Source: an uncultured Candidatus Saccharibacteria bacterium
GTDB lineage: Bacteria; Patescibacteriota; Minisyncoccia; Phycocordibacterales; UBA9973
DNA: 64,000 nucleotides
Assembly (NCBI GenBank): GCA_964553015.1
Contig: CAZKJE010000002.1
Span: 14,175 to 78,174 of the forward strand
Reading direction: 5' to 3'
Shown: piece by piece, positions 2,141 through 39,993 of the stretch
Layout of the letters: each line of letters starts with the position of its first letter
How positions within the stretch are numbered: the stretch's first letter is position 1
Made by a program: the position numbers and the translations under genes
The notes under the pieces: model-generated
Seen by the model: the letters and a program-made list of their open reading frames with translations, nothing else
What the model was told of the DNA's origin: nothing
The model's database searches: none

Positions 2141-2160
2141 AGTTATCCACATCTGGCTTG

Positions 2161-2189
2161 TTGACAGTGAACGCTCGTTCACTTATACT
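2161..2189 (+). promoter_or_regulatory. sigma70-like promoter TTGACA-17-TATACT with embedded LexA operator
   Basis: TTGACA at 2161-2166, a 17-nt spacer, TATACT at 2184-2189. The spacer is the perfect inverted repeat AGTGAACG-CT-CGTTCACT. Confidence 0.6.
2166..2183. promoter_or_regulatory. LexA (Cheo/SOS-box-like) operator GAAC-N4-GTTC
   Basis: AGTGAACGCTCGTTCACT is an 8+8 perfect palindrome matching the Gram-positive-type LexA box CGAACnnnnGTTCG. It overlaps the promoter spacer upstream of the lexA operon. Confidence 0.6.
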
Positions 2190-2278
2190 AATTAAGTCGC
2201 AAATACCCCTACCCGGCCTCTCCCTAAAGTAGGGGGAGGAGAAAGGAGGGGGTAAATTATAAAATTAAAAACAAAGCT

Positions 2279-2479
2279 ATGAGTCAAACACAATATTTAA
2301 AAATGCTGGAGAGAGAAATCCAAGCAATAAATAAGAGGATAGATCTTAAAATTCTCAAGGGTCAGAATTATCACAAAGAGGCGATAGAACACAAGCTCCT
2401 AATTAGGAAAGTGCGATATCATTCCCGAAGTAACTTTTTGCGTAAATTTTTTCCCACTTTTGCGCAGTTTTCTTTTTAG
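2279..2479 (+). CDS. small basic helical hypothetical protein (66 aa), first gene of the LexA-box transcript
   Basis: ORF sits between the LexA-box promoter and lexA. No SD sequence, no recognisable domain. Confidence 0.3.
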   Translation: MSQTQYLKMLEREIQAINKRIDLKILKGQNYHKEAIEHKLLIRKVRYHSRSNFLRKFFPTFAQFSF

Positions 2480-2506
2480 TTTCTTTCTAAAAGATAAACA
2501 AAATAA

Positions 2507-3076
2507 ATGATAAGAAATCCCCATCAGATAAAAATAGAATCTTTCTACGGAGAGAATAAGAGGATGCCGACGTATTCGGAAATGATGAAGCTCTTCGGCT
2601 ACAAATCCAAGAATGCGGTTTTTAAAGTCGTGGAGAAATTGATTGACGCAGGGCTCGTCGCCAAAGATCATCTCGGCCGGTTAGTACCCACACAATCTTT
2701 TGGCGAAGTTCCGATGCTTGGGCTGGTGACTGCCGGTTTGCCTGCAAGTGTGGAAGAAGAGCTCGCAGATACTGTGAGCTTGGACGAATTTTTAATAGAA
2801 AAGAAAGCTTTTACATATATGCTAGAGGTGGACGGGGATTCTATGATAGATGCGCACATAGAAAAGGGGGATATGGTTCTCGTCGAGAAGGCAAACCAGG
2901 CTAAAGATATGCAGATAGTCATCGCCGAAGTGGATGGCGAATTTACGATGAAATATTTTAGGCGTGATGGGAATAAATGTTGGCTCGAGCCGGCCAACAA
3001 AAACTACAAACCGATCTATCCGGAACATTCTTTAAATATAAATGCAGTGGTGAAAGCGGTGATTAGGAAATACTAA
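2507..3076 (+). CDS. lexA: LexA repressor (S24 peptidase)
   Basis: N-terminal wHTH. Ala-Gly cleavage site in VTAGLP. Ser/Lys dyad in GDSM ... FTMKYF. Strong similarity to the LexA C-terminal domain. Confidence 0.85.
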   Translation: MIRNPHQIKIESFYGENKRMPTYSEMMKLFGYKSKNAVFKVVEKLIDAGLVAKDHLGRLVPTQSFGEVPMLGLVTAGLPASVEEELADTVSLDEFLIEKKAFTYMLEVDGDSMIDAHIEKGDMVLVEKANQAKDMQIVIAEVDGEFTMKYFRRDGNKCWLEPANKNYKPIYPEHSLNINAVVKAVIRKY

Positions 3077-3091
3077 ATAAGATAGGAAATC

Positions 3092-3118
3092 AAAAAATCC
3101 CCCGAATGGGGATTTTTT
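3092..3118. terminator. bidirectional intrinsic terminator between lexA and hup
   Basis: AAAAATCCCC-GAAT-GGGGATTTTT hairpin flanked by A and T runs between two convergent genes. Confidence 0.7.
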
Positions 3119-3166
3119 GATTTCCTAATTTCTCTCGAGAGAACCCCACTTGGCGGGGCAGGAATA

Positions 3167-3439
3167 TTACGCAACCATATCCTTCAAACCTTTTGCAGGT
3201 CGGAATTTTGGCACTTTCTTTGCAGCCACTTTGACTTGCTCCCCAGTCTTTGGATTGCGAGCCATGCGAGCAGCGCGAGATTTTACTGAAAAGATTCCAA
3301 AGCCGGCGATCGATACTTCCTGTCCCTTTTTCAAGGTCTGGATGATAGCATCAAACATTCCGTCTACGAGCTCTTCAGCCTGCACTTTTGTGCCGCCTAG
3401 TTTTCCGTGTACCCATTCAGCTAATGCTTGTTTATTCAT
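3167..3439 (-). CDS. hup: HU-family DNA-binding protein
   Basis: 90 aa. GFGIFSV ... RNPKTGE arm motifs of HU/IHF. Confidence 0.9.
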   Translation of the reverse strand: MNKQALAEWVHGKLGGTKVQAEELVDGMFDAIIQTLKKGQEVSIAGFGIFSVKSRAARMARNPKTGEQVKVAAKKVPKFRPAKGLKDMVA

Positions 3440-3530
3440 AATGTAAAAAAATTATTTTTGTAATTCTTTCGACCTTTTAACCCTTATTTTTGATACCTAT
3501 TCATTATATATCAAGGGTTTTTTAGCGCAA

Positions 3531-5057
3531 CTACCGGGCGTATTCCACAATTCTTGTCTCTCGGATCATAGTGACCTTGATTTCTCCCGGATATTTTAGT
3601 TCCTGCTCTATTTTTATAGCTATATCGCGTGCCATTATTTTAGCTTCGGCGTCAGATATCTTTTCCGGAGTTACAAATATGCGGATTTCGCGTCCGGCCT
3701 GCAGAGCATATGATTTTTCAACAGCAGGGAACTGGTTTACCAGAGCTTCGAGCTCCTGCAACCTCTTTAGGTAATTTTCAACAGAGTCTCGACGGGCTCC
3801 CGGACGGCCTCCGGATATCGCGTCTGCGGTCTGCACGATGATGGATTCAATAGTTTCGTATGGATAGTCCTCGTGGTGCGATTTCATTGCAGTCACGATG
3901 CGTTCGTCAGCGCCGAATTTCTGAAGGATACGCATGCCTATCTCCACATGCGTGCCCTGTACTTCGTGGTCGAGCGCTTTTCCGATGTCATGCACCAAGG
4001 CTCCAGCCTTGGCAATCTGTACATCGGCGCCGAGCTCTTCGGCAATCATGCCGGCAATGTGAGACATTTCCGTAGAGTGCTGTAGAACGTTCTGGCCATA
4101 GCTTGTTCGGAAATATAATCGGCCGATAATCGCTACGATGCGCGGATCAAAGTTAAATATTCCGCATTCATACACCGCCTGTTCTCCTTTTTCCTTAATT
4201 ATTTTATTTATATCTTCCTTCGCTTTTTCTACGAGCTCTTCAATTTTTGCCGGCTGAATGCGTCCGTCTAAGATTAGGTTCTCAAGCGCCAAGCGGGCTA
4301 CCTGTCTTCGGATAGGATCGAAACAGGAGATAACAATAGAGCCAGGAGTATCGTCCACGATGAGCTCCACTCCCGCTGCCCGTTCAAATGCGCGGATATT
4401 GCGGCCTTCTTTTCCGATAATTTTTCCTTTAATTTCATTGTTTGGAATAGAAACAACTGTCGTCATGAGTTCGGAAGCTGTACTCGCGGCTAAACGCTGA
4501 ATAGAAGTCGCCAGGATATCTTTTGCGTGCCTATCAAGCTTTTCCTCGTTACTATTTTCCAATTTCTGAATACGAATCATGATGTCTTCTTCATATTTTT
4601 TTTCTACATCTCGAAGAAGTTCTTCTTTGGCTTCGTTTTCTGTCAGCTCTGCGACTCTCTCCAGCTCTATTCTTTTTTCATCTTCTATTTTTAATATTTT
4701 TTCCTGTATTTTTTTAACCTCCTCAACTTTTAGCTTGATCACTTCGGCTTCCTTGTTTACTTCCACCTGCCGCGCGTCCAAGAACTCATCTTTTTTTATG
4801 AGTCTTTTTTCGGTTTCTTTCCATTCATCAGTCTTTCTCTTCTCTTCTTCTTTTAAGTTGCCGACCAGCTCTTCGGATTTTTTCTTGGCTTCATCCGTGA
4901 TCCTTTGCGCTTCTTCTTTCGCGCCGACCATCATCTGTTTTATGTCTATCTCAATAGACCTGCGTTTTCCGAGCGCGACCAAAAGGCGCAGATAGTATCC
5001 GACTATCACGCCCAAAAGGAGCACTCCGACTCCGACTAGAATTATTATTATGCTCAT
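3531..5057 (-). CDS. rny: ribonuclease Y
   Basis: N-terminal TM helix, coiled coil, KH domain (IIGKEGRNIR) and HD domain (HSxEV ... AMKSHHEDY ... DAISGGRPGAR). Confidence 0.9.
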   Translation of the reverse strand: MSIIIILVGVGVLLLGVIVGYYLRLLVALGKRRSIEIDIKQMMVGAKEEAQRITDEAKKKSEELVGNLKEEEKRKTDEWKETEKRLIKKDEFLDARQVEVNKEAEVIKLKVEEVKKIQEKILKIEDEKRIELERVAELTENEAKEELLRDVEKKYEEDIMIRIQKLENSNEEKLDRHAKDILATSIQRLAASTASELMTTVVSIPNNEIKGKIIGKEGRNIRAFERAAGVELIVDDTPGSIVISCFDPIRRQVARLALENLILDGRIQPAKIEELVEKAKEDINKIIKEKGEQAVYECGIFNFDPRIVAIIGRLYFRTSYGQNVLQHSTEMSHIAGMIAEELGADVQIAKAGALVHDIGKALDHEVQGTHVEIGMRILQKFGADERIVTAMKSHHEDYPYETIESIIVQTADAISGGRPGARRDSVENYLKRLQELEALVNQFPAVEKSYALQAGREIRIFVTPEKISDAEAKIMARDIAIKIEQELKYPGEIKVTMIRETRIVEYAR

Positions 5058-5248
5058 AAGCCTGTGTCAGCTTACAAGAACAAACCACTATATTTTAGAT
5101 TTTTCCTGCCTGCATGCCAAAGATTTGCAAACTTTCTCTTATCTTTTCTTTTGAAAACTTCATAATATATGGGATATTCCTGTGAACCAATGTAAAATAA
5201 ATTTTTAAAATTCAACGTACATAGTATAACAGAAAGGATAAAATTAGT

Positions 5249-5854
5249 CTAGTTTTCCTGTTTTGACCCTGGAGTTTTGGATTTGGTGACTATTTCGTCT
5301 ATTATTCCGTACTTCTGCGCCTCTTGCGCATCCATGAAGAAGTCCCTCTCCACGTCTTTTTCAATCTGGGTGAGGGATTTGCCGGTATTTTTTGCCAAAA
5401 GTTTGTTTAAATTATCTCTGGTCTTTAAAATATGCTTTGCCGTGATTGCAATATCGGTGGCTTGGCCTTCCACTCCGCCCAAGGGCTGGTGGATCATGAT
5501 CTCGGCGTTCGGCAAAATATAGCGCTTGCCACGCTTACCGGAAGACATGATGATAGCGGCGCCTGAAGCAGCGAGGCCGACACAGAAGGTAGAAATATCC
5601 GGACGGACATGATTCATGGTGTCCACTATGGCCATAGTAGAAGTCACCGATCCGCCCGGAGAATTTATATAAAGATGAATATCTTTTTTAGCATCTTCGG
5701 ATTCTAGAAATAGAAGCTGGGCGATGACGATATTTGCGGTGTTGTCGTCAATCGGTCCGGCTAAAAAGACTATCCGCTCGCGCAAAAGGCGGGAATATAT
5801 GTCGTAAGCGCGTTCTCCAAATTGCGATTTTTCTATTACTGTTGGTATTAACAT
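5249..5854 (-). CDS. clpP: ATP-dependent Clp protease proteolytic subunit
   Basis: Ser-His-Asp triad context ([17 protein letters not shown]). TATAAT lies 6 nt upstream of the ATG on the minus strand, so the transcript is probably leaderless. Confidence 0.9.
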
Positions 5855-5894
5855 GTAAATATTATATTCTAATTTTTAACTTTTTCAAGCTTGT

Positions 5895-5923
5895 TGACAT
5901 AAACCTACTTTAAGTGTATAATA
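5895..5923 (+). promoter_or_regulatory. consensus sigma70 promoter TTGACA-17-TATAAT
   Basis: TTGACA at 5895-5900, spacer taaacctactttaagtg, TATAAT at 5918-5923. It lies about 40 nt upstream of a strong SD (AAAGGAGGA). Confidence 0.6.
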
Positions 5924-5964
5924 CCAAACGAATAAAAATTGAACCAAAAGGAGGATTCCAATCA

Positions 5965-6144
5965 TGAAGTTTATTTTCTTGCAGAATACATCTGACGGGT
6001 GCAAGCCCATGTGGCTTACGCCCCCGTTTGATGCCCCGTCCGTAGAAAGAGCGGATCAGATCACCAAAGAGCGATACCTCCACGAGGGCGAGCTCTACAA
6101 AAAGGTTGAAAAAACCGAGACGATCGTGAGAGGAATCTGGTAGA
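5965..6144 (+). CDS. small hypothetical protein (59 aa) with strong SD and GC-rich, atypical codon usage
   Basis: Not in the ORF track because it is under 60 aa. AAAGGAGGA sits 7 nt upstream of the ATG. Sequence MKFIFLQNTSDGCKPMWLTPPFDAPSVERADQITKERYLHEGELYKKVEKTETIVRGIW. Terminator hairpin downstream. Confidence 0.45.
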
Positions 6145-6159
6145 GTAGCACAACAACAT

Positions 6160-6215
6160 CGCTCGCTCTGGGCAAGAAGACTCGTCTTCTGCTTCGGGCG
6201 AGTTTTCTTTTTACC
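6160..6215 (+). terminator. intrinsic terminator / possible attenuator upstream of the pyr operon
   Basis: Nested GC stems (GCAAGAAGAC-TCG-TCTTCTGC inside CGCTCGC...GCGAG) followed by TTTTCTTTTT. A second weaker hairpin lies at about 6222-6255. Confidence 0.5.
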
Positions 6216-6275
6216 TCCTTGCCCTGCTTAGCGGGGCTTGCTTCTCTTTTTTAAAGTGCTACTATTTTACCTAAT

Positions 6276-7523
6276 GTGTCTAATGAAATACGTAAAAATA
6301 TGCCAAGAAAAATGATAAGTGTAGAAGGCAACATAGTAAATAAAGATAAAGTTTTCCGCGGAAGAATTGAAATTGATCAGAGCGGAATGATAGATAAAAT
6401 CGGCGAACCGAAAGGTGACGCCGATTTTATTTTTGAGGATGAATTAATTTTTCCCGGATTCATAGATCTGCATGTGCATGCGCGGGAAGATGCAAGCCAC
6501 ACGCAAGATTACAAAGAAGATTTTATCTCCTCGGGAGTTGCGGCGATAAGCGGCGGAGTGACAGCATTTGCAGAAATGCCGAACAATCCAGTACCGCCGA
6601 TTGATGATAAAAGTTACGCAGAAAAAAAAGAATTAACTAAGAAATCTCCAGTTCCAGTTTTACTTTATGCAGGCATCGGCCCTAAGACAAAACCGCTTTC
6701 ATCAAAAGTTCCGTACAAAGTTTTTATGGGTAAATCTGTCGGCGATCTTTTTTTTACAACACTGGAAGAATTAGAATCAGTAATAAAAAATTACAAGGGA
6801 CAATACGTGAGTTTCCACTGCGAGGATCCGGAAATTCTGGAAGAAAAAACTCATGAGTTAACTCATGAGTTACAGCGCCCCAGAGAAGCTGAAATTTCCG
6901 GAATAGATTTCGCGCTCAAATTAATAGAAAAATATAATATTTTTGGAAAAATTTGTCATGTATCTACGATAGGAGGAATACAAAAAATTATTGAAGCAAA
7001 AAAAAGAGGGGTAAATGTAACAGTAGAAGTAACTCCGCATCATTTGTATTTTGCGAAAGCAAATAAAAATTTACAAGTCAATCCGCCCATACGTGATGTA
7101 GAAGATTGTGCGGCTTTAATAAAACTTTTGAAACGAGGCGATATTGATTTTCTTGCTACCGACCATGCTCCGCACACAAAAGAAGAGAAGAAAAAAGGAG
7201 TTTCAGGCATGCCGCATTTAGATACTTACGGACCGTTTATCGCATGGCTTATAAAAGAACACGGTTTTACGCAGGAAGAAATTGCGAGAGTATGCGCATA
7301 TAATCCGGGTGTTTTTTTAAATAGTTTTATGCCTGAGAAATATGGAGAAACAAAAGAAGGCTACGTTGGCTCGCTTACAGTAATAAATATGAACAAGCCA
7401 GTAAGGATAAAAAAAGAAATGCTTAAAACGAAATGCGGCTGGTCGCCTTTTCTGGGGGTGACATTTCCGGGAAGCGTTACTATGACAATAGTAAAAGGAG
7501 AAATTTATGAAAACAGAAAATAG
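6276..7523 (+). CDS. pyrC: dihydroorotase
   Basis: Amidohydrolase motifs DLHVHARE and DHAPH. GTG start preceded by the extended -10-like TGCTACTAT. Confidence 0.85.
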   Translation: MSNEIRKNMPRKMISVEGNIVNKDKVFRGRIEIDQSGMIDKIGEPKGDADFIFEDELIFPGFIDLHVHAREDASHTQDYKEDFISSGVAAISGGVTAFAEMPNNPVPPIDDKSYAEKKELTKKSPVPVLLYAGIGPKTKPLSSKVPYKVFMGKSVGDLFFTTLEELESVIKNYKGQYVSFHCEDPEILEEKTHELTHELQRPREAEISGIDFALKLIEKYNIFGKICHVSTIGGIQKIIEAKKRGVNVTVEVTPHHLYFAKANKNLQVNPPIRDVEDCAALIKLLKRGDIDFLATDHAPHTKEEKKKGVSGMPHLDTYGPFIAWLIKEHGFTQEEIARVCAYNPGVFLNSFMPEKYGETKEGYVGSLTVINMNKPVRIKKEMLKTKCGWSPFLGVTFPGSVTMTIVKGEIYENRK

Positions 7524-18957: not shown

Positions 18958-19707
18958 ATGCGGCGCAACATAATCGGTTGTCTCGTTGTTCTCTTGGTCT
19001 TGGCGTTCTCTGTTAACGCACAAGACTCTGAACTCTTAACGCTTGACCGTCGTCCAGACATTTTCTCAACGAAGATGGCGGTCCAACAGGGGGTGGGCGG
19101 AGTTTTCAACTCCGTTCAAATTCCGACTAGACGTCGCGGAGCACGTCGCCCTGTGCCAACTCCCACTTATATGACGCTCGAAATGGGAATCGGAGTAGTG
19201 GGGCCTGACGAGTTCGGGAAGTACAAGGTTCCTTTCTCCATTTGGTTTCCCGTTCCGGAGGGAACCACGTTCACAGGTTACTCTGTGGATGTGAATGGGA
19301 ACAGGAGTTACCTTGGGCACAACACGGTGACCAGCGAAACTGCGAACCTCGGTTGGGCGGGTAATCTCTGGGGTCCATATACGGGAGGTGCTCTCCTGCC
19401 AGAGAGCATCGTAGGGTTCGAGGTTGAGTTTACTGGTAACTTCCAGACCTACGGTATGCATACTCCGGCACCAGGGGCTACCAGACCTCCAGTGATAGTG
19501 GACGTGTACCCCAATGGGTTGCTCTTCCTCAAGGAGACGTTCGCAGTTCCACCGGTTATCTCTCTCAACGGAAGAGGCCATCCGATTCTGAACGGATGGG
19601 TGACTCCGATGGAGGGATATACGGGACCGGACGTTGTCGTAATTAGGTGCACAGGCTTTCCTCGTTCGGAGTGTCTGACCCAGGTCGTCGACATTCCGAC
19701 CTCATAA
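18958..19707 (+). CDS. secreted hypothetical protein with foreign (GC-rich) codon usage
   Basis: Start refined to the ATG after SD AGGAGGG. Signal peptide MRRNIIGCLVVLLVLAFSVNA. About 55% GC with G/C-ending codons (aag, gag, ttc, aac, tac), unlike neighbouring genes. Confidence 0.7.
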   Translation: MRRNIIGCLVVLLVLAFSVNAQDSELLTLDRRPDIFSTKMAVQQGVGGVFNSVQIPTRRRGARRPVPTPTYMTLEMGIGVVGPDEFGKYKVPFSIWFPVPEGTTFTGYSVDVNGNRSYLGHNTVTSETANLGWAGNLWGPYTGGALLPESIVGFEVEFTGNFQTYGMHTPAPGATRPPVIVDVYPNGLLFLKETFAVPPVISLNGRGHPILNGWVTPMEGYTGPDVVVIRCTGFPRSECLTQVVDIPTS

Positions 19708-19759
19708 CATTGAGAAGTTTAATAGAATCTGACCGAAAGGAAAGGTTCGAAGATCAACC

Positions 19760-19797
19760 GCCCCGGTTCCGCAAGGAATCCGGGGCATAACTTTTTA
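19760..19797 (+). terminator. intrinsic terminator
   Basis: GCCCCGGTTCC-GCAA-GGAATCCGGGGC hairpin followed by a T-rich tract. Confidence 0.6.
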
Positions 19798-19865
19798 TAC
19801 CAAAGTCTGAGTTATCCACATGCTTTCTTGATATTTTGTTTACTTTTTAAAGTATAATTGAGTAT

Positions 19866-22676
19866 ATGAACAAACTAAAATATTTTTTATTTGGCGCATT
19901 TTTTCTTTTAGCATTCGCTTTTTTATTTACTAATGTTAATCAAGTTTCCGCAGCTGGAAATTGTACGACAGATACTTGGAATCCTCCTAGTCTGGTTCCT
20001 TGGAAGACTACAGCCTCTACTCAAACATTTGACTTGACCCATACTTATAAGGATGGGTTTTTGCCTGGAGCCCCTTCTACAACTGAAACAGATTCTTGTA
20101 CAACAACAGCAAATCACGGCGCTACTTGCCAAGCGGGAGGTGTAACTGAATCATTACAAGGTCCACAGGATCCAGAATTTGGATATCCATGTAATCCAAG
20201 TGGATTAATAAACGTAACCAGTCCCATAAATAGAATAGATACACTTCTGCCAGTTTGCGGTACATGGAGTGGTTCGGGGCCGACATATACTCTCTCGGGT
20301 TCAACTGACCCGGCTGCAAGCGGGGGTAGTGGACAAAGTGGGATAAATGTTTCTGGTGGTTCTTGTACCGCTTCATCGGGGAGTTCTTGTACAGTAACTA
20401 TTTCAGATGTTGCGGGAAATCTAAAATCTTGTACCAGCCCGGTTTATGGTAATTATACAGTAGCCGCAGTTGCAAATAGTGGTGGCAGTGTTTCTCCAAT
20501 TTCTCAACCAAATGTAGCTTATGATTCTACGACAAATTTTACCGTTACCCCAAGTAATGGCTTTACTCATGCTGTTGGATCTCCAGGCTTTGGTCCTTCA
20601 GGGTGTGCTGATAATACAGGGACTTTTACTACTGGTACTAACTATCTTACTGGTAAGATTAAAAACAACTGCAACTACACTTTTAGTTTTACTCTTAGCG
20701 TTCCCGCTACTCCCACTGGTCTAACTGCCACACCTAGTTCTTGCGGAACAGGGAGAATAGATGTTTCGTGGAATGCATCCAGCGGCGCTACCAGCTACAC
20801 GCTTAAGGATGGAGCTGTTACTATTTATACCGGAGCTGCAACTTCTTTTGCTCACACTGGTCTAGTAGCGGGCTCGAGTCATAGTTACACCGTGAGTGCT
20901 ACAAATAGCGGCGGCACTTCTGCATACTCAAGCGCTGTTTCAGCGAGTGCGCCGATAGCGTGTGCTGCAGTTGTCAACGGCTCCTGTTCAGTAACCCACT
21001 ACGGTTGTACTGCAGGAACAAGCGCCAACAATGTAGACGGCGCTACTTCTTGGACTTGGGTTTGCAATGGTTCAAATGGCGGAACCAACGCATCCTGTTC
21101 TGAAGCGAAACCTTTACCCGATCTCACTGCTTCCTCTCCCACGCCAACGACAGCCACCACCGGCGTAGCGCAGACGTTCTCTTCAACTATCTCCAACATC
21201 GGCACCGCTTCAACTGGAGCTTCTTTCTCCAACTTCTTCCAGGTAGCCACAGCTGCCGGAGGAGGGGGAACTGTTACGGATCTTGCCTCTACTACAATGA
21301 CAACTCTGGCTGCCGGAGCCACTGGCACCAGCACCAAGGCCTACACCTTCCCATCTGCCGGCACATACTCTGTCCGAGCTTGCGCGGACAAGACTAACGC
21401 CGCTTCTACTGGAGTAATTACGGAATCAAATGAGGGTAACAATTGCAGTTCGTGGACAAATGTTTCAGTCACCAGCACCCCTGTCATGTCCGGCACCCTG
21501 ACTCCAAATCCTACTTCTTGTGTTATAGCTTCTGGTGCTTCAAGTTGTTCTGTCACTCTTAATTGGAGCATAGCAAATCCTGAAGGAATACCGACCGCTA
21601 TCACAGCCACAGGAATGACTAATGTGAATGTCACAAACACTCTGGCAACACCCCAATCCGGGAATCAATCTTTAACTGTTCCGTACAGTTCTAGAATATT
21701 TTATCTTTACAATAATGGAGTTCAGCTTGCTACCAGCAGTGCTACTGCCAGTTGTACAGGGGGGACTGCATGGAATGGAAGTATCTGCGCTCCCGCTATG
21801 TCCGGCACACTTACGTCTTCAGCTCCATCTTGCGTAATTGCTTCCGGAGCAAGCACTTGCATTGTAAATCTCACTTGGACTACGACAAATCCCGAAGCAA
21901 CTTCTGCGGTCACTTCTTCTTATCCTGCTCCTAACACTACTGTTTTCACTGGATTAAACGGCGGTCCTTCATCGGTTACCATTCCGTACAGTTCCAGAAC
22001 TTTCTATCTTTACAATAATGCAAAATCACTCGTGCCGACTTCTCCTAGCGGAGCCGGTATCGTCGTGACTGCAAGCTGTACAGGAGGAACAGCTTGGAAT
22101 GGAACAGTTTGCGCAAACGTTCCTCCCACGGTTAACGCCGGTCCCGATAAGGCCATAACTCTTCCTACTAGTTCTTCCGCTCCTACCGGCGCCTATGCTA
22201 CCGATGTCTCGCCTGGCACAATAAGCAGCAGATTGTGGACGAAAACTTCTGGCCCGAGTGCTACCATTACCAATGGGACGACGCTTACTCCTACGTTTTC
22301 TAATATGACAGCCGCCGGCACATACGTCTTCCGTCTCACTGCTACCGACAATCAGGGGGCTACAGGATTTGACGAAATGCAGGTTGTGGTTTCAGCTTCC
22401 GGCGGTGGAGAAGAATGCACTAATGGAGCAACGAATTATCCCGAGTGTACTATCGATGGCGGAGGATGCCTCAACGGCGCAACCAATCCGCCTCTTTGCA
22501 CCATCGGGGCAGGCACTAATGGCAACTGCGCAATCACGCCTAACACCTGTTCTTCTGGAACACCGACCGTTGGCGCATGGAATGCCTCTAACCATGTCTG
22601 GACTTGTACTGGAACGAACGGAGTGCCTGTATCATGTTCAGCCCCGAAGAGACAGCCGGACTTTATAGAAAATTAA
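19866..22676 (+). CDS. large Thr/Ser/Gly/Cys-rich cell-surface protein with an Fn3-like domain and tandem repeat modules (putative adhesin)
   Basis: 936 aa. N-terminal signal/anchor. Fn3-like segment (GLTATPSSCGTGRIDVSWNASSGATSYTL ... YTVSATNSGG). Two tandem repeats of about 105 aa. Repeated Cys modules (C..GC..G...W.W.C.G.NG...SCS). TATAAT lies 7 nt upstream of the ATG. Confidence 0.8.
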   Translation: MNKLKYFLFGAFFLLAFAFLFTNVNQVSAAGNCTTDTWNPPSLVPWKTTASTQTFDLTHTYKDGFLPGAPSTTETDSCTTTANHGATCQAGGVTESLQGPQDPEFGYPCNPSGLINVTSPINRIDTLLPVCGTWSGSGPTYTLSGSTDPAASGGSGQSGINVSGGSCTASSGSSCTVTISDVAGNLKSCTSPVYGNYTVAAVANSGGSVSPISQPNVAYDSTTNFTVTPSNGFTHAVGSPGFGPSGCADNTGTFTTGTNYLTGKIKNNCNYTFSFTLSVPATPTGLTATPSSCGTGRIDVSWNASSGATSYTLKDGAVTIYTGAATSFAHTGLVAGSSHSYTVSATNSGGTSAYSSAVSASAPIACAAVVNGSCSVTHYGCTAGTSANNVDGATSWTWVCNGSNGGTNASCSEAKPLPDLTASSPTPTTATTGVAQTFSSTISNIGTASTGASFSNFFQVATAAGGGGTVTDLASTTMTTLAAGATGTSTKAYTFPSAGTYSVRACADKTNAASTGVITESNEGNNCSSWTNVSVTSTPVMSGTLTPNPTSCVIASGASSCSVTLNWSIANPEGIPTAITATGMTNVNVTNTLATPQSGNQSLTVPYSSRIFYLYNNGVQLATSSATASCTGGTAWNGSICAPAMSGTLTSSAPSCVIASGASTCIVNLTWTTTNPEATSAVTSSYPAPNTTVFTGLNGGPSSVTIPYSSRTFYLYNNAKSLVPTSPSGAGIVVTASCTGGTAWNGTVCANVPPTVNAGPDKAITLPTSSSAPTGAYATDVSPGTISSRLWTKTSGPSATITNGTTLTPTFSNMTAAGTYVFRLTATDNQGATGFDEMQVVVSASGGGEECTNGATNYPECTIDGGGCLNGATNPPLCTIGAGTNGNCAITPNTCSSGTPTVGAWNASNHVWTCTGTNGVPVSCSAPKRQPDFIEN
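21478..22113 (+). repeat. two tandem coding repeats of about 318 bp inside the surface-protein gene
   Basis: Repeat 1 is PVMSGTLTPNPTSCVIASGASSCSVTLNW...CTGGTAWNGSICAPA. Repeat 2 is MSGTLTSSAPSCVIASGASTCIVNLTW...CTGGTAWNGTVCAN. Roughly 60% identity. Confidence 0.6.
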
Positions 22677-39070: not shown

Positions 39071-39145
39071 TTGATATTAGTAGCAAAATAGACTTATGAA
39101 ACTACAAGAAGGATAATAGCGTAACTAAACCATAAAGTCAATTTG

Positions 39146-39535
39146 TGGAGATGGGGGAAATTGAATCCCCGTGCAGAAGGTTTTTGCAAAGAAGTCTACA
39201 TGCGTAGCGCGCTTTTTGTTTTAAATTAAAAAATTATGAAACGCGCCAAATATTTTTTAACCGAGTTCTTTTGTTTTGCGAGAGCGTCAGAACAGGCGTT
39301 CAAGCTATCCCGATAATGTTATGCCTCGTCTTATATATCGGAAGTCTATAAGAGAGACACCACCTCAGGCTTACGCGAAAGATGGAGCGAAAGCGAGCGC
39401 ATTACCGAAGTAAGGCGAACGCATTGCTGTGAAAGCTGATTTTGCAATTAGCTGTTGAACGAATTTTTACGAGATTACGTTCATTCTCGGCATGCATCAA
39501 TAACAAATGGCCAACTGTCTATGCCTTGCATCCCC
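39146..39535 (-). ncRNA. ssrA: transfer-messenger RNA (tmRNA)
   Basis: 5' end GGGGAUGCAAGG...GCAUGCCGAG...CUCGUAAAAA shares the PK1-region strings with E. coli tmRNA. 3' tRNA-like end with T-arm GGGGA-UUCAAUU-UCCCC and acceptor CAUCUCC-A pairing with the 5' GGGGAUG. Lies next to smpB. Predicted tag ORF is GCA AAA ... GCG UAA. Confidence 0.75.
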
Positions 39536-39546
39536 ATATTTACTTT

Positions 39547-39993
39547 TCAACGTCCTTTAAAATCTCGGCGAATCTCGCGATCAGTGTCACGCTTTTTTAG
39601 AGTTTCGCGTTTATCAAATTTTTTCTTGCCTTTCACCAGGGCAATTTCCAATTTGATTTTCCTGCCTTTATTATACACTGAAATCGGCACTATTGTCAAA
39701 CTTTTATTCTTCTCGCTGCCTTGTAGCTCATTAATTTCTTTTTTGGTCAGCAAAAGTTTCCTATTGCGCAGAGGATCATAATCTTTTGGCGCATTTTTTG
39801 CCTGATATGGAGGTATGTTGGCATTGATCAGGTATGCTTCGCCGCCGCGTATAATTACAAAAGCCCCCTCGAGCGACATCTGACCCGTTCGTACAGCTTT
39901 TACTTCTGTTCCCAAAAGCTCAATACCGGTTTCGTGCTTTTCTAGGAATTCATAATTGAATCGCGCTTTGCGGTTTTCTGTATAACTAGCCAT
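39547..39993 (-). CDS. smpB: SsrA-binding protein SmpB
   Basis: 148 aa, typical SmpB sequence (GIELLGTEVK ... ). Confidence 0.9.
   Translation of the reverse strand: MASYTENRKARFNYEFLEKHETGIELLGTEVKAVRTGQMSLEGAFVIIRGGEAYLINANIPPYQAKNAPKDYDPLRNRKLLLTKKEINELQGSEKNKSLTIVPISVYNKGRKIKLEIALVKGKKKFDKRETLKKRDTDREIRRDFKGR

What the first reader, a model, noticed from the sequence alone, without database searches (positions are those of the whole stretch)
5895..6215. Self-contained expression module: consensus promoter, strong-SD GC-rich 59-aa ORF and terminator, immediately upstream of the pyr operon
A perfect TTGACA-17-TATAAT promoter drives a 59-aa ORF at 5965-6144 that is not in the track. Its AAAGGAGGA SD and G/C-ending codons (about 52% GC) are unlike most native genes, which lack SD. 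A nested GC-rich terminator with a TTTTCTTTTT tail follows 16 nt after the stop, then pyrC-carA-carB-pyrB begins. There are two readings. One is a highly expressed, possibly horizontally acquired, small protein. The other is a leader peptide with a transcription attenuator controlling the pyrimidine operon, analogous to E. coli pyrBI. Against the second reading, pyrC also has its own TGCTACTAT -10.
Basis: partly seen in the sequence, partly recalled or inferred. Interest (0 to 1): 0.55.

Follow-up and report, generated by a model that had tools for sequence, protein, structure and literature searches.

The report
Inserted orphan small-gene cassette
A roughly 310-base stretch carrying its own strong promoter, ribosome-binding site, 59-codon gene of unknown function and terminator hairpin was inserted between the clpP and pyrC promoters of one Nomurabacteria-like genome; it is a lineage-specific gene gain, not a regulator of the pyrimidine operon.

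Summary
The sequence features are real, with 1-nt coordinate offsets. They are a perfect TTGACA-17-TATAAT promoter (5894-5922), AAAGGAGGA 9 nt before ATG, a 59-codon ORF (5964-6143), a -23 kcal/mol hairpin plus T-tract (6161-6212) and a second hairpin (6221-6237).

Twelve related Patescibacteria loci (11 distinct sequences) have clpP and pyrC back to back, 60-220 bp apart, without this segment. They keep the TG-extended -10 of pyrC (TTGCTT-16-TACTAT in the window). Removing 5894-6202 restores the ancestral spacer. The module is therefore an insertion upstream of the pyrC promoter, and the leader-peptide/attenuator reading fails.

The ORF is probably translated. Its initiation region is unstructured, and its GC is 3-periodic (p = 0.007). 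GC3 is 0.66 against 0.40 in native genes, and strong SD sites are rare in native genes.

The ORF has no homologue in about 15 billion proteins, in metagenome, viral, phage or plasmid DNA, or in Pfam, PHROGs, PADLOC, NCBIfam or PDB. Its function is unknown.

In one relative (L023), an unrelated promoter-to-terminator cassette, probably a DGR target gene, sits at the same point.

Best description: a moron-like, autonomously expressed orphan gene cassette in a permissive gap between divergent promoters. Interest is modest.

The parts
5861..5888 (-). Native clpP promoter (TTGAAA-16-TATAAT). Its -10 ends 6 nt before the clpP ATG at 5854, so clpP looks leaderless. This is the left flank of the insertion.
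   Evidence: 11/12 match. The sequence TTTTTCAAGC is shared with most of the relatives.
5894..6202 (+). Core inserted cassette, about 309 bp, running from the -35 hexamer to the end of the T1 stem. It is absent from related genomes.
   Evidence: Alignment A1, spacer lengths, spacer sequences, and the restored alignment after deleting this segment.
5894..5922 (+). Perfect sigma-70 consensus promoter, TTGACA-17-TATAAT. The inferred transcription start is near 5929-5930.
   Evidence: 0.01 expected by chance. The start site is inferred, not measured.
5947..5955 (+). Shine-Dalgarno sequence AAAGGAGGA, with GGAGG ending 9 nt before the ATG.
   Evidence: The 5929-5990 stretch is nearly unstructured (dG -3.1 kcal/mol; 197 of 200 shuffles fold at least as well).
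5964..6143 (+). 59-codon ORF (p59): MKFIFLQNTSDGCKPMWLTPPFDAPSVERADQITKERYLHEGELYKKVEKTETIVRGIW. It is an orphan.
   Evidence: GC1/2/3 are 0.475/0.373/0.661, and the periodicity permutation gives p = 0.007. No homologues.
6161..6212 (+). Terminator T1: a nested hairpin at 6161-6203 followed by TTTTCTTTTT. The T-tract aligns with the ancestral T-rich spacer of relatives.
   Evidence: dG -23.4 kcal/mol, z = -4.2. for the T-tract alignment.
6217..6237 (+). About 19-20 nt of extra sequence that forms hairpin T2 (GCCCTGC-TTA-GCGGGGC, 6221-6237). It sits just before the pyrC -35 and is followed by a T-rich run. It is probably a backup terminator or insulator.
   Evidence: dG -12.7 kcal/mol, z = -3.6. 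Relatives lack these bases.
6238..6265 (+). Native pyrC promoter: TTGCTT-16-TACTAT with a TG extension at 6257-6258. This is the right flank of the insertion.
   Evidence: The TG-extended -10 is present in all relatives whose spacer sequence was read. The -35 varies and is displaced in those with overlapping divergent promoters.
6300..7523 (+). pyrC (dihydroorotase), first gene of pyrC-carA-carB-pyrB. The ATG at 6300 aligns with the start codon in relatives.

Best explanation
The segment is a lineage-specific, self-contained single-gene cassette. It was inserted into the narrow gap between the back-to-back -35 elements of the divergent clpP and pyrC promoters of a Candidatus Nomurabacteria-like (Patescibacteria) chromosome.

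Inferred mode of action:
1. Housekeeping RNA polymerase starts at a perfect consensus promoter, near 5929.
2. A 35-nt unstructured leader with a strong SD recruits ribosomes. This contrasts with the mostly SD-less or leaderless native genes.
3. A 59-aa soluble orphan protein is made.
4. Hairpin T1, placed in front of the pre-existing T-rich spacer, ends transcription. T2 serves as backup.
5. pyrC-carA-carB-pyrB therefore continues to be driven by its own promoter.

The DNA of the ORF came from outside the native compositional regime, so horizontal acquisition is likely, perhaps from an unsampled phage or mobile element. The protein's biochemical function cannot be assigned.

Shown here: the sequence elements, the insertion, the compositional anomaly and the lack of homologues. 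Inferred: transcription, translation, termination efficiency and foreign origin.
For: Insertion:
- Twelve related loci, 11 distinct sequences because L004 and L022 are the same contig, have clpP and pyrC divergent and 60-220 bp apart without the segment.
- The closest relative, L002 (PyrC 76%, ClpP 94% identity), lacks it.
- Deleting 5894-6202 restores the alignment with the relatives' spacer.

Expression signals beyond chance:
- Perfect promoter, 0.01 expected.
- AAGGAGG-N9-ATG, 0.12 expected.
- T1 z = -4.2 and T2 z = -3.6.

Coding:
- The ORF fills the space from SD to terminator.
- GC is 3-periodic, p = 0.007.
- The initiation region is less structured than 197 of 200 shuffles.

Foreign composition: GC3 is 0.66 against 0.40, a value reached by 0.19% of native 59-codon windows. 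SD-like motifs precede only 4 of 45 native ORFs.

Precedent: in L023 an unrelated cassette is inserted at the same point, within about 3 bp. That cassette is conserved as a unit from its -35 to its terminator in four different genomic contexts.

The contig is also present in a second assembly of a public run.
Against: - No homologue of the protein exists in about 15 billion predicted proteins, in metagenome or viral contigs, or in phages or plasmids. Purifying selection therefore cannot be shown and no donor can be named.
- The single-sequence AlphaFold2 model has low confidence (pLDDT 57).
- The GC periodicity is equally compatible with an antisense frame (5910-6083, 57 aa). That frame has no promoter or SD and also no homologues.
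- There are no expression data.
- The right boundary is compound (T1 plus a separate roughly 19-nt segment), so more than one event occurred.
- No recombinase, terminal repeats or target duplication explain how the segment got in.
Confidence: 0.68

Rival explanations
1. The transcript is a small non-coding, or dual-function, RNA. Promoter and terminator bracket a structured RNA of about 280 nt, and the ORF is incidental.
For: The whole transcript folds better than shuffles (z = -3.4 to -3.8). The ORF part alone gives z = -2.0. The region is a GC-rich island in an AT-rich spacer. The peptide has no homologues.
Against: - No Rfam family matches at E <= 10.
- Much of the fold signal comes from the terminator hairpins.
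- A strong SD at ideal spacing, an ATG and an ORF that exactly fills the transcript are not expected of an sRNA.
- GC is 3-periodic.
- The 5' end is unstructured.
- No related sequences exist to test covariation.
Confidence: 0.12
2. It is a leader peptide plus transcription attenuator controlling pyrC-carA-carB-pyrB. This would resemble E. coli pyrBI, or a PyrR-type attenuator.
For: It lies immediately upstream of and co-directional with the pyr operon. A small ORF is followed by a hairpin and T-tract.
Against: - The module lies upstream of pyrC's own promoter, whose TG-extended -10 is intact and shared with relatives. Twelve related loci have the operon without the module.
- The ORF ends 17 nt before the stem, so a terminating ribosome would not reach it.
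- There is no U-rich pause tract before T1.
- No PyrR RNA hit.
- Several relatives carry a different terminator-like hairpin plus T7 between the promoter and the pyrC start. The window lacks that leader.
Confidence: 0.04
3. It is a small toxin of a type I toxin-antitoxin pair, or another addiction-type module. That would explain persistence of an orphan gene with strong expression signals.
For: The size class (59 aa), stand-alone expression signals, orphan status and insertion in an intergenic gap all fit.
Against: - The peptide is hydrophilic after residue 7 and has no transmembrane stretch (sequence).
- No antisense promoter lies inside the module.
- No PADLOC, Pfam or NCBIfam match.
- No second gene is present.
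Confidence: 0.04
4. It is an assembly chimera or contaminating DNA rather than a real part of this chromosome.
For: The consensus promoter and SD look almost synthetic. There is no homologue anywhere.
Against: - The identical segment, with both junctions, occurs on a second contig assembled from a public run (L001, 4.7 kb).
- The flanks are perfectly syntenic with relatives.
- There is no similarity to the plasmid or phage collections.
- A 309-bp chimera placed exactly between two promoters is unlikely.
- The two assemblies may share reads, so this is not fully independent evidence.
Confidence: 0.03

Closest known systems
Phage 'morons' (Hendrix and colleagues; criteria as summarised in PMC2920897)
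   Same: It is one extra gene inserted between two genes that are adjacent in relatives. It has its own promoter and terminator, its base composition differs from the surroundings, and different inserts occupy the same hot spot in different genomes.
   Different: It sits in a core chromosomal region (RNase Y, clpP, pyr operon), not in a phage or prophage. It has not been seen in any second genome. No phage protein family matches it.
The 267-aa gene cassette of Patescibacteria seen in L023 (probable DGR target gene)
   Same: It has a TTGACA-17-TATACT promoter, an SD, a GC-rich ORF and a terminator hairpin. In L023 it is inserted at the same point of the clpP|pyrC spacer, and its homology across contexts runs from the -35 to the terminator.
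   Different: The protein is unrelated. That family has more than 360 relatives at 60-100% identity, a conserved structured leader of about 150 nt, and bAvd plus reverse-transcriptase neighbours in L037 and L041. p59 has no relatives, and the only related pattern checked in the window, a p267 homologue, was not found.
E. coli pyrBI leader peptide and attenuator
   Same: A short ORF and an intrinsic-terminator-like hairpin lie upstream of pyrimidine biosynthesis genes.
   Different: In pyrBI (from my own knowledge) the leader ORF runs into the attenuator, a U-rich pause site couples transcription to UTP level, and the single promoter lies upstream of the leader. Here pyrC keeps its own promoter downstream of the hairpins, the ORF stops 17 nt short, and relatives lack the element.
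Taxonomically restricted (ORFan) small protein genes
   Same: It has no detectable homologue, is short, and is confined to one lineage.
   Different: Unlike ORFans thought to arise de novo from local non-coding DNA, this one has third-position GC far above the native level, and it arrived as an insertion with complete expression signals.

Membership tests
Moron-type autonomous gene cassette | The gene is present between two genes that are directly adjacent in related genomes. | tested here: met
   clpP and pyrC are adjacent, 60-220 bp apart, in 12 related loci (11 distinct sequences). The window has an extra 309 bp plus about 19 bp.
Moron-type autonomous gene cassette | It has its own promoter and terminator. 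| tested here: met
   Sequence-level evidence only: a 12/12 promoter and hairpin T1 with a T-tract. Activity was not measured.
Moron-type autonomous gene cassette | Its base composition differs from the surrounding genome. | tested here: met
   GC3 is 0.66 against 0.40, placing it in the top 0.19% of native 59-codon windows.
Moron-type autonomous gene cassette | It resides in a phage or prophage genome. | tested here: not met
   The neighbours are RNase Y, ClpP and the pyr operon. There is no PHROG hit and no match in viral contigs or phage records. It resembles a moron in anatomy only.
Moron-type autonomous gene cassette | The same cassette is found in more than one genome or context. | tested here: not met
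   Only self-hits were found.
pyrBI-type leader peptide attenuator | The element lies between the operon's promoter and its first gene. | tested here: not met
   The pyrC promoter (6238-6265) is downstream of both hairpins.
pyrBI-type leader peptide attenuator | The leader ORF overlaps or reaches the terminator, so a translating ribosome blocks hairpin formation; a U-rich pause site lies upstream. | tested here: not met
   The stop codon is at 6141-6143 and the stem starts at 6161. The intervening sequence AGTAGCACAACAACATC has no U run.
pyrBI-type leader peptide attenuator | Read-through depends on pyrimidine nucleotide supply. | not testable with these tools
   This needs transcript mapping under different pyrimidine supply.
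PyrR-binding attenuator (Rfam PyrR) | It matches the PyrR-binding RNA covariance model. | tested here: not met
   There is no hit at E <= 10 in 5000-7000 on either strand.
Type I toxin | A short hydrophobic, membrane-spanning peptide with an overlapping antisense RNA gene. | tested here: not met
   The peptide has no hydrophobic stretch beyond residues 2-6. No antisense promoter is found in 5894-6240.
Known structured RNA family (Rfam 15) | It matches any covariance model. | tested here: not met

The most novel reading that the evidence does not exclude
Promoter-to-terminator single-gene cassettes could be a distinct route of gene gain in Patescibacteria. Such cassettes would land repeatedly in the gap between back-to-back divergent promoters; here two unrelated cassettes sit at the same clpP|pyrC point in two lineages. 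Under this reading, p59 is a genuinely new, highly expressed microprotein, for example a host-interaction or anti-phage factor of an episymbiont, delivered in this way.
Probability: 0.12. Interest if true: 0.55.

Novelty: new member of a known kind. Interest (0 to 1): 0.28.

Why it matters
The practical value is mainly corrective. The pyr operon of this organism is not controlled by a leader peptide, and annotators should add a 59-codon gene at 5964-6143.

More broadly, it is a clean example of how a reduced-genome Patescibacteria lineage gains a gene. The unit arrives complete with expression signals and drops into the one spot of a short divergent-promoter spacer where it breaks neither promoter. 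It carries an SD-led initiation signal into a genome that mostly does without SD. An unrelated cassette at the same point in another lineage hints at a general permissive site.

The protein itself is an untestable orphan until expression or interaction data exist.

Tried and rejected
Searches for relatives of p59 that found nothing useful:
- Word-indexed search of 5.8 billion protein clusters: self only.
- Exhaustive phmmer of 1.84 billion representatives: self plus three tandem-repeat junk proteins, P0002-P0004, judged spurious after reading them.
- Back-translated scans of metagenome and viral contigs.
- blastn and tblastn against phage and plasmid collections.
- Pfam, PHROGs, PADLOC, NCBIfam and PDB sequences.

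Other checks:
- The antisense open frame has no homologues.
- Single-sequence AlphaFold2 gave pLDDT 57 and pTM 0.20. That is too poor for a fold search, so none was run.
- No Rfam family matches.
- No paralogue or repeat of the insert occurs elsewhere in the window or in the fetched loci.

Leads considered and dropped:
- A short resemblance, KPMWLTPPFD versus RPMWATPFFD, in an L003 open frame. It is 10 residues at E = 0.28 in a tiny database, so it counts as chance.
- A 5-bp GCTTG 'target duplication' at 5889 and 6236. The better-supported right boundary is about 6202, so it does not flank the core insert.
- The anti-SD-like ACCTCCTT at 6213-6220, which pairs with the SD in the read-through fold. 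It aligns with the ancestral spacer of relatives, so it is probably coincidental.
- No terminal inverted repeats were seen when the two ends were compared by eye.

A second metagenome scan with PyrC found no relative closer than 71% identity. The time of insertion therefore cannot be narrowed.

Full report
**The observation**

- TTGACA (5894-5899), a 17-nt spacer and TATAAT (5917-5922) make a 12/12 match. The exact pattern occurs once in 64 kb, against 0.01 expected from dinucleotide shuffles.
- AAAGGAGGA lies at 5947-5955, and its GGAGG ends 9 nt before the ATG at 5964. AAGGAGG-N9-ATG occurs once, against 0.12 expected.
- The ORF is 5964-6143, 59 codons plus TAG.
- Seventeen nt after the stop, a nested hairpin (6161-6203, dG -23.4 kcal/mol, z = -4.2) is followed by TTTTCTTTTT.
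- Downstream are dihydroorotase, carA, carB and pyrB. Upstream on the other strand are clpP and RNase Y.
- ORF GC is 50.0%, against 41.6% for the window.

**Organism and comparative evidence**

A PyrC-based scan of species-representative genomes returned Candidatus Nomurabacteria and other Patescibacteria MAGs. The best is L002, with 76% PyrC and 94% ClpP identity. A scan of metagenome contigs added more loci but none closer.

In twelve loci clpP and pyrC are divergent neighbours, 60-220 bp apart: L002, L003, L004, L005, L008, L014, L015, L018, L019, L020, L021 and L024. L022 is the same contig as L004, so it is not counted separately. The window has 445 bp between the two start codons.

The alignments show two features shared around the gap.
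- The clpP promoter flank, TTTTTCAAGC on the plus strand, which is the reverse of the -35 TTGAAA, is shared with most relatives.
- The pyrC promoter reads CTTGCTT ... TGcTACTAT and is followed by a conserved CAATGTGT-like start region. Its TG-extended -10 is present in all relatives whose spacer was read. The -35 varies.

The promoter-ORF-hairpin segment fills the gap between these two features and has no counterpart elsewhere. Deleting 5894-6202 from the window restores an alignment with the relatives' spacer. In that alignment the T-tract after T1 (6203-6212) and the following ACCTCC match the ancestral T-rich spacer. About 19 further nt (about 6217-6236), which form hairpin T2, remain window-specific.

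Every outgroup lacks the segment, including the closest. Gain in the window's lineage is therefore the parsimonious reading.

**Gene or RNA**

Evidence for a translated gene:
- The SD and ATG geometry is optimal, in a genome where only 4 of 45 long ORFs have an SD-like motif (a crude count at the longest start).
- Several native genes have a -10 element abutting the start codon. For clpP, TATAAT ends 6 nt before the ATG.
- The ORF spans almost exactly from SD to terminator.
- GC by codon position is 0.475/0.373/0.661, and a permutation test of the periodicity gives p = 0.007.
- The first 62 nt of the predicted mRNA are essentially unstructured (dG -3.1 kcal/mol; 197 of 200 shuffles fold at least as well).

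Evidence against, or neutral:
- The periodicity would also fit one antisense frame (5910-6083). That frame has no promoter or SD and no homologues.
- The whole transcript folds better than shuffles (z about -3.4 to -3.8), largely because of the terminators. The ORF alone gives z = -2.0.
- No Rfam family matches at E <= 10.

I put about 0.68 on a translated small-protein gene and about 0.12 on a non-coding or dual-function RNA.

**Origin**

A GC3 of 0.66 is reached by only 0.19% of 59-codon windows in native genes (mean 0.40, sd 0.10). The ORF's DNA is therefore unlikely to have arisen from local AT-rich spacer. This points to acquisition from outside, but no donor can be named.

The peptide has only itself as a hit in 5.8 billion protein clusters. 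An exhaustive phmmer of 1.84 billion representatives gave only itself plus three tandem-repeat artefacts. Nothing was found in metagenome or viral contigs, in phage or plasmid records by DNA or protein, or in Pfam, PHROGs, PADLOC, NCBIfam or PDB sequences.

The single-sequence structure model is unreliable (pLDDT 57). It weakly suggests an N-terminal beta hairpin followed by one long helix.

The identical segment with both junctions is present on a second, independently assembled contig (L001). That argues against a chimera.

**A parallel at the same site**

L023 comes from a Hainich groundwater contig and has 68% PyrC identity. It carries about 1.2 kb immediately after the same TTTTTCAAGC flank and before the same T-rich spacer. 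The segment holds a TTGACA-17-TATACT promoter, a leader of about 150 nt, an AGGAG SD, a 59% GC ORF of 267 aa and a strong terminator hairpin.

This protein is unrelated to p59. It belongs to a large, well-conserved Patescibacteria family with 366 hits. In L037 and L041 it lies next to bAvd and a reverse transcriptase, which makes it a probable target gene of a diversity-generating retroelement.

Across four genomic contexts, homology of that cassette runs from the -35 region to just past the terminator. In L023 it begins at the -35 hexamer itself, while L037, L039 and L041 share some further upstream sequence.

Complete promoter-to-terminator units therefore do relocate in this group, and two unrelated ones landed at the same point of the clpP|pyrC spacer. 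The simplest explanation is a permissive site, because the spacer is almost entirely promoter and leader. The gap between the two -35 elements may be the only place where an insertion breaks neither. A targeted mechanism cannot be excluded. No recombinase, terminal inverted repeat or convincing target duplication was found.

**The regulatory reading**

The leader-peptide/attenuator idea fails on position, since the module lies upstream of pyrC's own promoter. It fails on comparative grounds, since relatives run the operon without it. It also fails on anatomy: the ORF stops 17 nt before the stem, there is no U-rich pause tract, and there is no PyrR-type RNA.

Several relatives (L005, L008, L015, L018, L020, L023, L024) do carry a terminator-like hairpin followed by seven or more T directly before the pyrC start codon. 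It lies inside a leader of about 100 nt downstream of the conserved promoter, and its stem sequences differ between loci. That leader is the real attenuator candidate in this clade. The window, L002, L003, L004 and L019 lack it.

T1 and T2 most plausibly insulate pyrC from the strong inserted promoter. Some read-through into pyrC is possible but untested.

**Comparison with known systems**

In anatomy the module matches the criteria used for phage morons: insertion between otherwise adjacent genes, own promoter and terminator, deviant composition and shared hot spots (PMC2920897). It fails two moron features. It is not in a phage or prophage, and it has not been seen in a second genome. I therefore describe it as moron-like, not as a moron.

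It is also a taxonomically restricted small gene. Unlike a de novo ORFan, it arrived as an insertion with foreign composition.

**Verdict**

The second reading, a pyr attenuator, is rejected. The protein's function remains unknown.

This is a tidy but ordinary case of lineage-specific gene gain. The modest added interest comes from the recurrent insertion point and from the SD-led design in a largely SD-less genome. Interest is 0.28, and the novelty class is a new member of a known kind.

Noticed in passing
L005 2480-2580; L008 3940-4000; L015 2430-2500; L018 430-480; L020/L024 about 620-680 and 1235-1290; L023 2470-2500: In several relatives the pyrC leader (about 100 nt downstream of the conserved promoter) ends in a GC hairpin followed by TATTTTTTT a few nt before the start codon. 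The stems differ between loci (CCCCAGTCGGGG, GCCCCTGTCGGGGC, GTCCCTCACAAGGGGC). This is a candidate pyr attenuator with apparent compensatory changes. No Rfam family matches in the five of these loci that were scanned (L005, L008, L015, L020, L023). It is absent from the window, L002, L003, L004 and L019.
   Followed up: partly
L023 1122-2175; L037, L039 and L041 about 2830-3880: A conserved Patescibacteria cassette holds a TTGACA promoter, a structured leader of about 150 nt with a long conserved hairpin, a 260-270-aa GC-rich protein of unknown family (366 relatives) and a terminator. It lies next to bAvd plus reverse transcriptase in L037 and L041, so it is probably a DGR target gene that also occurs away from the DGR (L023, L039).
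   Followed up: partly
L037 2570-2702 (-); L041 2587-2716 (-): LOOT RNA (RF03000, 78-79 bits) lies directly upstream of the 267-aa family gene and near the DGR reverse transcriptase.
   Followed up: no
window 2143-2151, 18821-18829, 19812-19820: The perfect DnaA-box-like nonamer TTATCCACA (within GTTATCCACA) occurs three times against 0.47 expected. Each copy is intergenic and 10-25 nt upstream of a promoter-like -35. It may be a transcription-factor site.
   Followed up: partly
window 2161-2506: A TTGACA-17-TATACT promoter has a GAAC-N4-GTTC (Cheo/LexA-box-like) palindrome in its spacer. A GC-rich hairpin with GGAGG repeats and a 66-codon ORF (2279-2479) with no Pfam match follow, just upstream of a LexA-like gene (2507-3076). 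It looks like an SOS-regulated small gene plus lexA autoregulation.
   Followed up: no
window 18840-19790: This is a second SD-led, GC-richer module. It has an extended -10 promoter, a leader of about 70 nt, GAAAGGAGGG, a 249-aa ORF (18958-19707) with a signal-peptide-like N-terminus, GC3 of 0.58 and no Pfam match, and then a terminator hairpin (19760-19786).
   Followed up: partly
L004 3533-3814; L014 about 2033-2314; L022 2033-2314: A partial tandem duplicate of clpP codons 1-94 sits between the full-length clpP and pyrC. This is a further sign that the junction is structurally unstable.
   Followed up: no
window 39143-39535 (-) and 39670-39699 (-): The tmRNA gene (RF00023, 120 bits) is here. 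The only other 12/12 consensus promoter in the window (TTGACA-18-TATAAT) lies upstream on the same strand, inside or ahead of the 148-aa ORF 39547-39993.
   Followed up: no
window 5854-5866 (-) and other gene starts listed: Many genes have a TATAAT-like -10 ending 5-8 nt before the start codon (clpP, and the genes at 19866, 32391 and 35347). This suggests widespread leaderless mRNAs in this genome.
   Followed up: partly
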